Assembly (NCBI RefSeq): GCF_031769215.1
Contig: NW_026781874.1
Location: 62,001-126,000, forward strand
Source of the DNA: Ylistrum balloti
Taxonomy: Eukaryota
Direction: 5' to 3'
Length of the DNA: 64,000 nucleotides
In this document: piece after piece, positions 1 through 46,900 of the stretch
Position numbering within the stretch: position 1 is the stretch's first letter
How the letters are laid out: the number at the start of each line of letters is the position of its first letter
Program-made: the position numbers

Positions 1-3000
1 GTTGATACTTGCAGACAAATCCTCACCACAAAACAAGCCTAGCCGTACCGAACTAGACGATGGACCTATAAACAACCACTGATGTTAAAAGTTTTCACAA
101 ACTTTTAATAATTTTAGTTCAGACAAAGTTTTCAGATAGTACTTGTCATTGATGTGTTTAAATCCATGCCACAAACTTTGCAGTGATATGATAAAATCTT
201 GAAATTTTGAAATTCTTTTTAATGGTTAACGTAACATACAACTGCAGACATACGCAAAGAAGTACATCTAATTGTTTTTTAAAGTTGAATCTATGCAAAG
301 GTCTGTAAGTGTATACTGCGATTAATGGCCTTTCAAATATATTCCCGTTCCATATGCTGATTTTTACGCATGTGTACACAATTAATTCGTATTACTTATG
401 ATAAGTATCGTAAAAGATAAATTGGAGATTTACCATCATAAATAGCCAATCCATCGTTCGAGCAGCCAATACTGCTCTGAATTGAAGAGTCGACAAGATT
501 TAGATGAATCTGCTCGCCTGCCGGTGCCTCGATGACCAGGTAACAGTTCAGGAAACTTCATAAAATACACGAAAAAGGTTAATCATGAAGAACGAAGGAT
601 ATTGACAGTATGTATCAAAATCTGACATGTATTCTAAAAGATTTAAACTTACAACAAATGTGATTGTGAATTGGATGCTAATTACAAGTAGGCTTTTCAA
701 CTGAAGTTAGATAATTTAGAGTTTAAGTTGTATTTTTAATACATAGTATGAAGTAAAACTTACTTTCCATAAAGGTTCGGATAATTTGGTGAGGTGACTT
801 GCGTTAGGGAGGAAGAGGCTGAAACCCGATCTTCGCTACACACTGAGTAGGTCGGGATGGACGGTACGGTAGTAGTAGCAGCCAATGTCCGACCTGTCAA
901 CAATGCAAAGCATCGATGTATTCTGAGGTATTGTGGATTTTTAGAATATTATTATAAGCACTACAACGGTGACGAACAATTTCTTTTATATATGTAGTAT
1001 TTTATTGAATGTGTATGTACATTAAAGCGATGTATCAAGTTAAAAAAGAATAAATATTCTATCGTGACTAATGGTATAAATTTTATTCTATGAAGACACT
1101 CCACGGATATGTATTTACCTCTTTTACTTTTTTGTCAAATATTGTACAAAAGACACATTAGTAATTAACACCTTTTCATGATTTAGAGTGAGATACAGTA
1201 TAGCCAAATAATGAACTTAACTACACCATACATCTGTTTCGTCTTTCAAGGACTCGTCAGTGATACTAAGGGTGTAAAATTTGAAGTCTTGGCGAAGTAA
1301 AATCCAAAGTAATCAAAAGAAAAGTCAAAATCTAGACGGAGAGGTAATTCATGCAGAATGTTAACATGCTCTGGACTATTTTAGTCTTAATAAGTAATGA
1401 AAGGTGTTATTCATTTTTACAATTCCTATAAAAATCGGCATTTCGTTTTGGTACGAAAGCGTTGTAAAGGGTTTTAATGGTCATTTGTATAAATATGGAT
1501 GAACTTACCCCTAAATGTAGAGTTGTACGACACAGCAAACCCAGTTCGAGAAGTAAGGGCAAAGGTGGTGGAAAGTTTTAGGAACATTTTATCTGCTGAA
1601 GATATGACAATGACACTGACGAAGTTCACCTTGTCGGAACAGACCTCTGCCAATTCTGGTGCTGTGTCATCCGCGCCTGAAAAGCAAAGAAATTGGATTA
1701 TATTGGATTGTATTAAATTACCGTAGAAAAAATGGCTGCCTGTGTACTATGTATACCTGTGTAATATGTAATACATTATCCACATGTCAAACGTAACTTA
1801 CATAGAAAAATAATACCGAAACCATTATATTATGGCATACTCTTGTAATGTTATAAATCAATATTCGACTTTGCGGATTTCCATACCTTCGGACCACTTA
1901 TTGAATGAATAACTTGTTATACATATTAAATACAATTGACTAATGTTTCTTATCAAATGTCTTTATAAAACTCAGATGACAATCTTCGGCTATCTCCATC
2001 TTAACAGTTAAAAAGATATTTTGCATTTTCATTAGCATATGTCATGCAGAATTTTTCCGCAGGAAGTACATATGTGTAAACACTTCCCTTGATACCACGT
2101 TGGTTCTATACTCACCGTCGAAGATAGGAAGTATATCTATGTAAACACTTCCCTTGACACCATATTGGATCTATACTCACCGTCGAAGATATGGAGTATA
2201 TTTGTGTAACACACTTACCATGACACCACGTTGGTTCTATATACTCACCGTCGTAAATCCGGAGTATGTCTGTGAAACACACTTCCCCTGACACCATGTT
2301 TGAGTATAGTACTTCTAGGATAATATCATCTGTTGGCGATACTGCAGTGATGAGCCAGGAGCACTGTGCATCACTAAAACATCAATATTGTAGATATGAA
2401 TTCTTTTAATGGATGCATCACTGACGAGAGTCCTAGAAGGAGGAATCAGTTGTGTGATGCAATTTAAGTCATCATTTGGCTTAACTGTATCTAACTCTAA
2501 GTTAGTAACAAAAGGTGCTAATCACTTGATGATATCAGATTCTGTCACATCTTGTATCCTTTGTACATTCATTGGAACATTTTGTTACATTCTTCAATTA
2601 TGATATATATCCGTAATGAATTTTCCGATTATATAACCAATTATTACAGGATATTCATAGTGTGTTAAATATACATAATTACACGTCTTGTAGTTGTGGA
2701 AATCCCGGGGAGTACAGGTATTGTATTTCAGTAGTCGCGTTCAGGGCCATGTTTGTTGGACATACACCTGAAACAAAAGACGTGATACGGTTGGTTGCAT
2801 TGTGTCATACATTTACTATATACATAATATAAACTGCAGTAATAAAATTAGAACTAGAATAATAAATACGAACGCATAAACAAGAAAACAAATATATCAT
2901 AATGAATAGGATTTACTAACAAAGTCATGTTAAACATTGACTAAGCTTTGCTGTATACATGAAACTTTGATATGAAAAAAAAATTACTATTATCTACTTC

Positions 3001-43900: not shown

Positions 43901-46900
43901 GCATGCTTCTATGTTATTGTAAATGTTTCCTCTATCAACATTCGGGGGGGGGGGGGGTGTGCGTTTTTCCTTATGATGCTAATGGGGAAAACGAGTTTCT
44001 TTATCACTTATGTGATTCCAGGCTTATAGTGAGAATCACTTGAAATTGTCCTGGATTTAAACAGCAAGATGATGAAACAGCACAAATGACTTCCCCCATG
44101 AATTTAATCTTCTCCTTTCAATTTTGCAAACGTTTCGTTAATATCATTTTAAATAAATTATTTTACACATATTTCCTTCTAAAATATTATCTTAGTCGCC
44201 CATACATACCGAAATGTTGAACAGAACAAATCCGATAAGAGCAAATATAGAAGAATAAATTCGGATCCGCTTTCCTCCATATCTTTTTCTAAGGTAACCT
44301 GGTGTCGTGAAGACCTTAAATAGAAAAAATATCTTGCTTTCACTGTTTTATATTTGTTAATATTTTAGCAGACCAAAACAAATGATGTACTGACATTGTG
44401 GGCTTCCAGTAGTAATTGCTCAGTGTCAGGACATTAGAATGTTAATTCACATCAGTATAGCATCTTAACCGGATACACTTTACTATAACAATTTAACTTG
44501 TCCTTACTGTTACCTCATTTATATGTGGACCTGAAAACGACACCAGGGAGTATCGACTGTGTAAAATGTGTGATCTCAGTCTGACTAACATATAGACAAG
44601 TTTTACCTATATTTGTCTAATTGCTATCTCATATCCTGTAACTTATATCAAATGTATATTTTGAAAAAATGTTGAACATATGTGATGTTGTGCAGTCGTT
44701 TGTGATTGTTGAGTTTAAGCTCTGTAGGCGACTTTCAGCCTTCGATGTTTGCTGTAACCATTTATGCAATATTAAAATTCGTATGGAAAACTCTTTGGTT
44801 CAAGGTCCAGGTTATTCATATATACTTGACTTTCAATTTTCTCCAGAATGAAAGTGTGGTGTATTAATTGAATTATTGGTAAAAGACCTTCCTAATATTT
44901 GTTTCATATAACTTTGATTTGGCTAATATCTCTGCTAGATTTCCAAACTTTCGCTTCTGATATCAATGTTTGTCATTAGACTAGGCTAATAAAGCGTGAA
45001 ATATGCTATAGACTCGTTCGCACGTTATACTTCCACTATACTTACAGACTGCAACTCATATAACCATTGCCGAAATTATCATCTTGATACCTATCCAACA
45101 AGACGTATACACAGGGACAAAAATCCACCCCAGTAAGATACTTACCCCACAAGACGTATACACAGGGACAAAAATCCACCCCAGTAAGATACTTACCCCA
45201 CAAGACGTATACACAGGGACAAAAATCCAACCCAGTAATATAAGGAAATACACAGCCTGTAAAACAATCGTATGTCATTATAATATCATTATCACATTAA
45301 GATAATTAAATCAAATGATGCCATGTTAGTCATTCCATACCATATCTTAAGAAAAATGGCACTTGTATGGCATGCCCCCAACATGGACAAGACTTAATAC
45401 TGAAATGACTACAATCTTTAGAAGGAAAAATAAAATTAGGTGAAAATTAATTCCAACGAAAACCAATTTTTAACAAAAGTGGTAAAATTGATATCACGTG
45501 TCATTTAACTTATCATGTCTACTGACAATCCATTCATAGATGATGACAGCGATGCCTGAAGCAGCGGCGGATCCAGCTATCCCTATGAACATCGGGGCTC
45601 CAATGTTACTAGCGAATATGGAGGCACCAACCTGTATAAATTGAGTCGTATAAAATTGTGAAAACCTGATTTTTTACAAAGACAAACATGTGTGTATTTT
45701 CTTCAAAGAAAGGTGACATACACTTTTTATGAATTTGACACGATATTACATTTCGATTTTTAGTCAAATTTAATTCAGAGTGCATTTTGTCTTTTTATGA
45801 GATAAAAATATTCCACTCAATTATGAAACAAGGAGATGTTTGTTTTGACAATCATTTATTGCTATTTTTATTCCATTTTATGACACCTTATACAGAAAAT
45901 CTGTATTTGTTTAATGAATATATTTTCAAATGAACCCTTAAATGTGTTTTGGTGAAGTTTTTTTTGTGAAGGTGAATTAACCCAAAAAAACTGTCACCTG
46001 TACGCATCGCTACCGTTAGTTAGACTTTTTAGTGTAAACTTCTTTGCGGATTTTCACAAAGTGCACATAGGTTTTTTTTAGTATCAATTTATCTAACTCG
46101 TTCCCTGAATCAAAGTCAGGAAACATTTCTCACTCATACATACCAAAATGTTATTTGAAGTCAAGAGTCGCTCTACTTTTATATATAATAGGGGGCATAA
46201 CAAAGGGAGATTATTTGCACAATGTTTATGTGTTGGTATCCATGAGTAGTTGAAGTGATTCCCAGTAGCAATATGTCATTTAGATACACTATACGATGAA
46301 GTACCCACATACTGGTATCCAGTGCATGTTCTTTCCCGCCAAAAAATATCCATGAGCGCTGCCTTTATTTGAACGACAGGTTGACTGCAATATAAATGTA
46401 TAAAACGTCATTGTTAAGCATAACCAGATATTGAAACTTTGTCTTCGAGGTCCTGACCAAAAATAAAGCTTTAAAATACACGTAAAAATTGCGGGAGATG
46501 TATGTAAGTGAGGTCAATGTCACTATCATGGCCTCATAGAAAAAAACAAAATATTTTCTTCTTGGATGATATAAAATGTTTTTTATGGTCGTTTAAGCCC
46601 GGTAATATTGTTGTTATATTCATCAGATTCTCCTTGGAGTAAATAACTTGTATTGCATAAGATTTACATGGCGAGTGTTGTAGATAAACCAGATGACGAT
46701 TACATTTCCACTATAGAATACTTACATACACACATATATAAACATATATATATATATATATATATGATAAAAAGCCTGACAGGAGACACATCTTCGATTA
46801 TGACAATGAAGTTTGTGAACGCTATTTCTTGAAAAGTTCAAGATAAACTTTTTCAAACTTCATATGCAATAGACAATTTGTCTCATGGTGTGCCGTTTTT

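What the first reader, a model, noticed from the sequence alone, without database searches (positions are those of the whole stretch)
2060..45256. Three independent minisatellites all nucleated on exon/donor junctions
Seen: of about nine tandem arrays in 64 kb, three unrelated ones (65-68, 76 and 51 bp) begin within an exon and include its 5' splice site. None does this at an acceptor. Inference: this looks like a bias, either a mutational mechanism tied to donor sites (R-loop or U1-associated pausing with slippage) or selection, since downstream donor copies leave the original exon intact. Either way it would be a lineage-scale generator of alternative 5' splice sites.
[Added by the scan's program, not by the reader: the finding's places include an assembly gap (unread letters, written N; its length is only estimated) at 11543 to 12457, 39939 to 40069. 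Whether the letters on both sides are continuous or in frame is not known: test that first.]
Basis: inference. Interest (0 to 1): 0.65.

Follow-up and report, generated by a model that had tools for sequence, protein, structure and literature searches.

The report
Minisatellites spanning exon-donor junctions, scallop
Three short tandem-repeat arrays in scallop genes really do start inside an exon and copy its splice-donor signal into the intron, a known kind of structure; one 64 kb window cannot show the proposed genome-wide bias.

Summary
The window is scallop DNA: exons are 100% identical to Ylistrum balloti proteins. All three arrays lie on the minus strand. Each starts inside a homology-confirmed exon and repeats its 5' splice site downstream:
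- 65-68 bp array at exon 6 of a CUB gene
- 76 bp array at exon 2 of its tandem paralogue
- 51 bp array at the 60-nt exon 4 of an SLC5 transporter gene

No mapped acceptor (0 of 48) is duplicated. The Y. balloti protein models for the two CUB genes use the first, authentic donor.

If each array's founding unit lands at random, 0.31-0.46 donor-spanning arrays are expected. P(3 or more) is 0.003-0.010, but this test was chosen after seeing the pattern. Donor versus acceptor at 3:0 is not significant (one-sided P = 0.125).

The kind is already described in human genes (F7, CBS, an interferon-induced transcript, LMNB2, PDGF), where the most upstream donor is chosen and the copies usually stay silent.

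Best reading: ordinary slippage minisatellites that persist because exon and first donor stay intact. A donor-linked mutational mechanism is untested. Both assembly gaps lie in introns, 5 kb or more from the arrays.

The parts
2249..2373 (-). Exon 6 of CUB gene B (Y. balloti 'tolloid-like protein 2'). It encodes the middle of a CUB domain and ends in ...IYDG.
   Evidence: 100% identity to P0124 residues 179-220, and conserved in two other scallops. Boundaries. Weak Pfam CUB match, E = 0.002.
2061..2300 (-). Array 1, unit 65-68 bp. It has three full units plus a partial fourth without a donor. The first unit is about 47-52 nt of exon 6 plus about 20 nt of intron.
   Evidence: TRF. Units aligned; pairwise unit identity is 54/69 to 57/68.
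2110..2248 (-). Donor series of array 1. The authentic GTGAGT has its G at 2248. Copies have G at 2180 (+68 nt) and 2115 (+133 nt). A newly arisen GTAAGT has G at 2218 (+30 nt, in frame).
   Evidence: All three copied 9-mers are identical and score 10.3 bits, against a mean of 7.9 for 45 other donors.
20510..20615 (-). Exon 2 of CUB gene A (Y. balloti 'DMBT1-like'). It encodes the start of the first CUB domain and ends in ...RVSYY(S).
   Evidence: 100% identity to P0121 residues 24-59; 75% in M. yessoensis and 86% in P. maximus. Boundaries.
19983..20526 (-). Array 2, unit 76 bp, 7.2 copies. It has two alternating unit variants, and a degenerate tail continues to about 19780.
   Evidence: TRF. 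In one search the first, exon-bearing unit matches the other units at 59-65 of 76 positions. The inner units match each other at 66-75 of 76. Distal copies match at 43-54 of about 80.
20048..20509 (-). Donor series of array 2. The authentic GTAAGT has its G at 20509. Six copies have G at 20433, 20357, 20281, 20205, 20129 and 20053.
   Evidence: The copies score 9.0 bits and the authentic donor 7.8. The exon frame reaches a stop inside the donor hexamer (ORF ends at 20506).
45197..45256 (-). Exon 4 (60 nt) of the SLC5-b sodium/solute symporter gene. It ends in ...VYTSCG.
   Evidence: tblastn with P0002 and P0007. The sequence and the matching paralogous exon 34334-34275 are shown. Boundaries.
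45086..45238 (-). Array 3: three 51-bp units, each 42 nt of exon plus 9 nt of intron. The unit is in frame (17 codons).
   Evidence: TRF; copy 1 versus 2 = 50/51 and copy 2 versus 3 = 48/51.
45089..45196 (-). Donor series of array 3. The authentic GTAAGT has its G at 45196. An intact copy has G at 45145 (+51 nt, in frame). The third copy, at 45094, has lost its GT.
   Evidence: scores 10.4, 10.4 and 0.2 bits; all 3 differences between copies 2 and 3 fall in the donor 9-mer (P = 0.004).
11543..12457 (.). Assembly gap inside intron 13 of gene A.
   Evidence: The flanking exons encode consecutive residues 552 and 553 of P0121.
39939..40069 (.). Assembly gap inside the SLC5-b intron between exons 12 and 13.
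   Evidence: The flanking exons match P0002 residues 463-539 and 536 onward.

Best explanation
These are three independent, ordinary minisatellites. Each was founded by a tandem duplication of 51-76 bp, by replication slippage or unequal exchange. In each case the duplicated piece happened to include the last 17-52 nt of an exon and its 5' splice site, and it was then amplified into the intron.

They persist for two reasons. The duplication leaves the exon and its own donor untouched as the first copy. The splicing machinery also uses the exon-proximal, most upstream donor. The copied donors are therefore mostly silent pseudo-sites.

If the pseudo-sites are used, arrays 1 and 2 give frameshifted or stop-containing transcripts. 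Only array 3 can give an in-frame insertion, of 17 residues.

Duplications that lie wholly inside exons are removed by selection. Duplications that span an acceptor would put the authentic site last rather than first, and they too are removed. This would leave a donor-sided survivorship pattern.

Shown here: the anatomy, the exon identity, the independence of the arrays and first-donor use in the two CUB protein models. Inferred: the founding mechanism, the silence of the pseudo-donors and the selective filter.
For: - **Real, conserved exons.** Identity to Y. balloti proteins is 100% for the two CUB exons. All three exons have orthologues in other scallops.
- **First donor used.** P0121 and P0124 continue from the authentic donor into the next exon.
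- **Local origin.** Each unit derives from its own junction: alignment scores are 124-199 against a shuffle 95% level of 18-21.
- **Independence.** The units are unrelated to each other apart from the donor motif.
- **Arose after gene duplication.** The paralogous junctions carry no array: SLC5-a exon 4, and TRF finds nothing at gene B exon 2 or gene A exon 6.
- **Other arrays are not junction-derived.** The 7 other arrays tested show no comparable similarity to their neighbouring junctions. Their lowest shuffle P values are 0.013 and 0.043 among 21 comparisons.
- **Precedent.** PMC1557585 (abstract, introduction passages and Discussion read) describes minisatellites whose first monomer spans an exon-intron boundary in several human genes. 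It reports selection of the most upstream donor in F7.
- **Cost of pseudo-donor use.**
Against: - Three such arrays in one window exceed the founding-unit expectation of 0.31-0.46 (P = 0.003-0.010). Plain chance plus tolerance does not predict that.
- In array 1 the donor is the longest invariant stretch: 14 nt, with 0 of 20 variable columns in the 9-mer (P = 0.04). This could mean the pseudo-donors are maintained.
- In array 3 one pseudo-donor is specifically destroyed (P = 0.004). This suggests pseudo-donors are not always harmless.
- PMC1557585 notes that in two other human genes the two nearest pseudo-sites are used as well as the authentic donor.
- No RNA evidence from this species was available. 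No Y. balloti protein model for SLC5-b was found among the 120 listed hits.
Confidence: 0.55

Rival explanations
1. Pure coincidence with no donor/acceptor asymmetry. Founding duplications hit junctions at random, and three donors with no acceptors is sampling noise in a gene-dense, repeat-rich window.
For: - The 3:0 split gives P = 0.125 one-sided.
- Arrays cover 8.5% of the window and the window holds 62 or more donors.
- The test was made after the pattern had been noticed, in one of an unknown number of scanned windows.
Against: P(>=3 at either junction kind) is 0.006-0.020 under the founding-unit null.
Confidence: 0.2
2. A mutational bias at donors. Transcription-coupled events at 5' splice sites, such as R-loops or U1-associated pausing, promote slippage, so arrays nucleate there more often than elsewhere.
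For: - The local excess over the founding-unit null.
- Five of 13 array units carry a donor-like motif stronger than 95% of random segments of the same length.
Against: - Two of those five motifs (arrays 16975-17407 and 32904-33097) lie on the strand antisense to the host gene, where no donor RNA is made.
- Forty-five of the 48 mapped donors have no local copy.
- The lipoxygenase gene has about 14 introns and no array.
- No sequence feature specific to such a mechanism was found. No paper proposing it turned up in searches.
Confidence: 0.1
3. The reiterated donors are selected for a function, for example extra U1 binding sites that strengthen definition of a short or weak exon, or that regulate its isoforms.
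For: - In array 1 the donor 9-mer is invariant while 20 of 71 columns vary (P = 0.04).
- In array 2 the copies score higher than the authentic donor (9.0 versus 7.8 bits).
- The array 3 exon is only 60 nt long.
Against: - In array 3 a pseudo-donor is destroyed.
- The array 2 result is not significant (P = 0.19).
- Homogenisation within arrays can mimic conservation.
- The paralogous exons work without arrays.
Confidence: 0.1
4. Assembly artefact. The arrays are mis-assembled or collapsed repeats in a gapped draft assembly.
For: The window has three N gaps.
Against: - The copies differ from one another in ordered ways, including higher-order variants and degenerate distal copies.
- The arrays are 5 kb or more from any gap.
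- The exons adjoining them are intact.
Confidence: 0.03

Closest known systems
Human F7 intron 7 minisatellite, 37 bp (PMC1557585, Borensztajn et al. 2006)
   Same: The first monomer spans the exon-intron boundary. The authentic donor is followed by several identical pseudo-donors. Only the most upstream one is normally used.
   Different: The F7 unit holds only 4 bp of exon; here the units hold 17-52 nt. F7 is a proven copy-number polymorphism with tested splicing, and neither was tested here. The organism here is a scallop.
Other human cases listed in the introduction of PMC1557585: an interferon-induced transcript, CBS intron 13, LMNB2 (100 bp) and PDGF intron 4 (81 bp)
   Same: These are minisatellites that reiterate a splice donor into the intron. 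Their unit sizes overlap those found here.
   Different: In the interferon-induced gene and in CBS, the two nearest pseudo-sites are used as well as the authentic donor. Usage here is unknown. I saw these cases only as cited in that paper; the original paper PMC306954 is not held.
Internal tandem repeats at exon-intron boundaries of human segmental-duplication genes (PMC2812944, De Grassi and Ciccarelli 2009; passages read)
   Same: Tandem repeats at exon-intron boundaries change splicing patterns.
   Different: That work concerns variable repeats between recent paralogues and the formation of new introns. The words 'donor' and 'acceptor' occur 0 times in its main text. Its Table S3 could not be seen because supplements are closed.
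Intron gain by tandem duplication of an exonic segment (listing and abstract of PMC4974935)
   Same: A tandem duplication supplies a second splice signal.
   Different: Here the introns are old. The SLC5 paralogue has the same exon boundaries. No new intron is created.

Membership tests
Minisatellite whose first monomer spans an exon / 5' splice-site boundary (F7 intron 7 type) | Head-to-tail array of units of roughly 10-100 bp | tested here: met
   Units of 65, 76 and 51 bp with 3.6, 7.2 and 3.1 copies.
Minisatellite whose first monomer spans an exon / 5' splice-site boundary (F7 intron 7 type) | The first unit contains the end of a genuine exon and its authentic donor | tested here: met
   The exons were mapped with scallop proteins. 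The donors lie at 2248, 20509 and 45196.
Minisatellite whose first monomer spans an exon / 5' splice-site boundary (F7 intron 7 type) | Downstream units reiterate the donor sequence | tested here: met
   There are 2, 6 and 1 intact copies respectively. The last copy of array 3 is mutated.
Minisatellite whose first monomer spans an exon / 5' splice-site boundary (F7 intron 7 type) | The authentic (most upstream) donor is the one used and the pseudo-sites are silent | tested here: inconclusive
   The Y. balloti protein models P0121 and P0124 join at the first donor. No transcript data exist for any array, and no Y. balloti model was found for SLC5-b.
Minisatellite whose first monomer spans an exon / 5' splice-site boundary (F7 intron 7 type) | Copy number varies in the population (VNTR) | not testable with these tools
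   Only one assembly was available.
Intron gain by tandem duplication | The intron is new and is bounded by the two duplicate copies | tested here: not met
   SLC5-a has the same 60-nt exon and donor position without an array. The introns run far beyond the arrays to mapped acceptors.
Satellite derived from a transposable element | The unit is unrelated to the local unique sequence and recurs elsewhere | tested here: not met
   Each unit aligns to its own exon-donor junction (scores 124-199). The three units are unrelated to each other apart from the donor motif.
   Only this window was available. Locally the split is 3 to 0 (P = 0.125), and P(>=3) = 0.003-0.010 under a founding-unit null.

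The most novel reading that the evidence does not exclude
In this scallop lineage, minisatellites are founded at exon-donor junctions about 7-10 times more often than random placement of their founding units predicts, and not at acceptors. The cause would be either a donor-linked mutational process or selection for reiterated U1 sites. Introns would then be seeded genome-wide with strong spare 5' splice sites.
Probability: 0.15. Interest if true: 0.6.

Novelty: new member of a known kind. Interest (0 to 1): 0.3.

Why it matters
Each array on its own is a textbook-type curiosity: a natural series of identical donors competing for one acceptor. Three in 45 kb of an invertebrate genome is a cheap pointer to a question that can be tested with any annotated, long-read mollusc assembly. 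Are junction-spanning minisatellites commoner at donors than at acceptors, and does that reflect how they arise or which ones survive? If the asymmetry is real, it would be genomic evidence outside mammals for 5'-to-3' polarity in splice-site choice. If not, the finding is three ordinary intronic minisatellites.

Tried and rejected
- **Query too short.** I searched with the next exon of the same gene instead and mapped the hits back.
- **Cluster look-up unavailable.** It was meant to find Y. balloti SLC5 isoforms that might use a pseudo-donor, but the database was switched off. This stayed unchecked.
- **Pfam on single exons.** It gave only weak CUB matches, and none for the array 2 exon. Orthologue mapping settled the exons instead.
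- **Other arrays as older junction arrays.** I tested 7 further arrays against their 3 nearest junctions each. Their lowest shuffle P values were 0.013 and 0.043 among 21 comparisons, which I took as chance. This includes the 1.2 kb array that starts 81 nt after a plus-strand CUB donor.
- **A U1 snRNA origin for the 42-bp array.** Rfam found nothing in the window.
- **Base-coverage null.** Arrays cover 8.5% of bases. I set this null aside because an expanding array does not engulf its neighbours. Under it donors are not enriched, and 0 of 48 acceptors would be a deficit (about 0.014, worked out by hand).
- **Automatic exon chaining.** It dropped some exons and picked wrong boundaries. I corrected these by eye and by paralogy. 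After correction, 47 of 48 donors are GT, one is GC, and all 48 acceptors are AG.
- **Literature.** Searches found no genome-wide comparison of donor-spanning and acceptor-spanning tandem repeats. One search found no Y. balloti nuclear genome paper among the 10 listed of 14.
- The effect of frameshifted pseudo-donor use on downstream exons was therefore not read.
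Full report
**What the window is.** G+C is about 33% throughout. One SLC5 exon (40964-41284, minus strand) is 94% identical to 'sodium/glucose cotransporter 4-like' proteins of the scallops Argopecten irradians and Pecten maximus. Two CUB-domain proteins of Ylistrum balloti match most of their exons in the window at 100%. These are P0121 'DMBT1-like' (638 aa) and P0124 'tolloid-like protein 2' (634 aa). The window is therefore Y. 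balloti or something nearly identical to it. It is not human. Rfam finds no RNA family.

**Gene map.** The map was made exon by exon, by tblastn of database proteins against the window.
- CUB gene B: 5609 to the window start, minus strand, 10 exons seen.
- CUB gene A: about 21489-11218, minus strand, 14 exons.
- A few plus-strand CUB-like exons near 24785-27090.
- SLC5-a: 36216-27853, minus strand, 14 exons. SLC5-b: 47501-39233, minus strand, 14 exons.
- A plus-strand PLAT/lipoxygenase gene: 55313-62775, about 14 exons at approximate positions.

After hand correction of some boundaries (and paralogy), 47 of the 48 mapped donors are GT and one is GC. All 48 mapped acceptors are AG.

**Assembly gaps first.** The gaps are 11543-12457, 39939-40069 and 51256-51632. 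The first lies between exons that encode P0121 residues 502-552 and 553-638. The second lies between exons that match P0002 residues 463-539 and 536 onward. In both cases consecutive exons of one gene, on one strand, flank the gap. The two sides therefore belong together and the gaps are intronic. Their true lengths are unknown, and they could hide further arrays. No array of the finding is nearer than 5 kb to a gap.

**The observation.** TRF reports the three arrays at the stated places. All three genes are on the minus strand, so the arrays read from high to low coordinates.
- **Array 1.** Exon 6 of gene B (2373-2249) ends at ...IYDG, with the donor G at 2248. The unit holds about 47-52 nt of exon and about 20 nt of intron. 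Copies of the donor 9-mer lie at 2180 and 2115, and a fourth, partial unit stops before the donor.
- **Array 2.** Exon 2 of gene A (20615-20510) has its donor G at 20509. TRF starts the array 17 nt inside the exon, and similarity runs about 30 nt in (20 of 30 matches, by eye). Six further donors follow at 76-nt steps. A degenerate tail continues to about 19780.
- **Array 3.** Exon 4 of SLC5-b (45256-45197, 60 nt) has its donor G at 45196. Each of the three 51-nt units holds 42 nt of exon and 9 nt of intron.

Each unit aligns to its own junction far above shuffles (scores 124-199 against 18-21). The three units are unrelated to each other apart from the donor motif. The 7 other arrays tested show no comparable similarity to neighbouring junctions. 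Their lowest P values are 0.013 and 0.043 in 21 comparisons.

**None at an acceptor.** A scan of 40-mers around each junction finds local copies at 3 of 48 donors (40, 33 and 27 of 40 matches). It finds none at 48 acceptors, where the best is 24 of 40. The background median is 21 and the 90th percentile 26. TRF reports no array inside the lipoxygenase gene.

**Is it more than chance?** An array contains a junction only if its founding unit did. The fair null therefore drops one unit per array at random.
- With 13 arrays (score >=100) and 48 or 62 donors, 0.31-0.40 donor-spanning units are expected, and P(>=3) = 0.003-0.006.
- With 18 arrays, 0.46 are expected and P = 0.010.
- Within the four mapped genes alone, P = 0.006-0.010.
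- Allowing either junction kind, P = 0.006-0.020 (all).

These values are nominal. The hypothesis was framed on this window, which is one of an unknown number scanned. Donor versus acceptor at 3:0 gives P = 0.125 one-sided. Measured by bases, 8.5% of the window is array and 3 of 48 donors are in arrays, so donors are not enriched that way. I regard that null as unsuitable.

**What the copies would do.**
- The two Y. balloti protein models continue from the first donor.
- In array 2 the exon frame meets a stop inside the donor hexamer (ORF ends at 20506). Every pseudo-donor therefore lies behind a premature stop.
- In array 1 the copies add 68 and 133 nt, both out of frame. A newly arisen GTAAGT at 2218 would add 30 nt in an open frame.
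- In array 3 the intact copy adds 51 nt in an open frame, which is 17 residues repeating part of a membrane segment.
- The third copy of array 3 has lost its GT. All 3 differences from copy 2 fall in the donor 9-mer (P = 0.004).
- By contrast, the array 1 donor is the longest invariant stretch of its units (P = 0.04). Array 2 shows nothing (P = 0.19).

There is no coherent signature of selection on the pseudo-donors.

**Age.** The paralogous junctions lack arrays: SLC5-a exon 4, and gene B exon 2 and gene A exon 6. Both CUB paralogues have orthologues in three scallop genera, so each array arose after that duplication. Copy identity is 95%, 91% and 83% for arrays 3, 2 and 1.

**Comparison with what is known.** PMC1557585 states that 'within several genes' minisatellites have a first monomer spanning an exon-intron boundary. 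Its cases are F7 (37 bp), an interferon-induced gene, CBS, LMNB2 (100 bp) and PDGF (81 bp). For F7 it shows that the most upstream donor is selected while functional pseudo-sites stay silent. Two of the other genes also use their nearest pseudo-sites. I read the abstract, introduction passages and Discussion.

PMC2812944 reports tandem repeats at exon-intron boundaries that alter splicing in human paralogues (passages read). Its supplementary table could not be seen.

The structures here are therefore new members of a known kind. No paper comparing donors with acceptors genome-wide turned up in searches.

**Mechanism.** I favour slippage-born minisatellites that survive because the first copy keeps exon and donor intact and is the copy that gets used (confidence 0.55). 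The polarity argument runs as follows: the authentic site is first in a donor array but last in an acceptor array. This gives a reason for asymmetry, but it is an inference. A donor-linked mutational process is not excluded, though it has no specific support. Five of 13 units carry unusually strong donor-like motifs, and two of those five are antisense to their host gene.

**Left open.**
- Transcript use of the pseudo-donors.
- Population variation in copy number.
- The orthologous loci in other scallops.
- Any genome-wide count.
- The cluster look-up for Y. balloti SLC5 isoforms, which could not be made.

Noticed in passing
window 16975-17407: A 42-bp array (about 10 copies) in intron 4 of gene A. 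On the plus strand, antisense to the gene, each unit carries an acceptor-like tract and CAG directly followed by an 11-nt match to the ideal donor (the ideal sequence is recalled, not from a call). Its donor score of 12.2 bits was reached by 0 of 3000 random segments. No exon is mapped there. It adjoins a TA/TG-rich low-complexity patch.
   Followed up: partly
window 16096-16098: The intron after gene A exon 6 starts with GC rather than GT. It is the only non-GT donor among the 48 mapped.
   Followed up: partly
window 45086-45136: The third unit of array 3 differs from the second at only 3 positions. All three lie in the donor 9-mer and remove the GT (P = 0.004). This is the only array whose unit is in frame.
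   Followed up: yes
window 2210-2225: The second unit of array 1 has acquired a new strong donor-like site (10.1 bits) inside its exon-derived part. It would add 30 nt in an open frame.
   Followed up: partly
window 19780-20526: Array 2 has two alternating unit variants, a higher-order pattern of about 152 bp. It also has older, degenerate copies beyond the TRF end. Its exon-bearing first unit is the most divergent of the seven full units.
   Followed up: partly
window 24785-27090: Plus-strand CUB-like exons of an unmapped gene. A 1.2 kb, 41-bp array (24993-26192) starts 81 nt after one of its donors without including it.
   Followed up: partly
window 1-21500 and 27853-47501: Two tandem paralogue pairs on the minus strand: CUB genes B and A, and SLC5-a and SLC5-b. 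Each member has its own orthologue in other scallops.
   Followed up: partly
window 49384-49608 and 52553-52753: Two related foldback elements of about 200 nt. Their arms are 86-90% complementary and are built from 21-bp repeats. They lie about 3 kb apart on either side of the third N gap, and may be a foldback or MITE-like mobile element.
   Followed up: partly
window 55313-63951: The PLAT/lipoxygenase gene (plus strand, about 14 exons) has no tandem array in any intron. A 49-bp array of about 0.9 kb begins about 240 nt after its last coding match.
   Followed up: no
window 32904-33097: A 38/76-bp array in SLC5-a intron 6. Its unit has a moderately strong donor-like motif on the antisense strand (8.8 bits, P = 0.034 before correction for 13 tests).
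   Followed up: no
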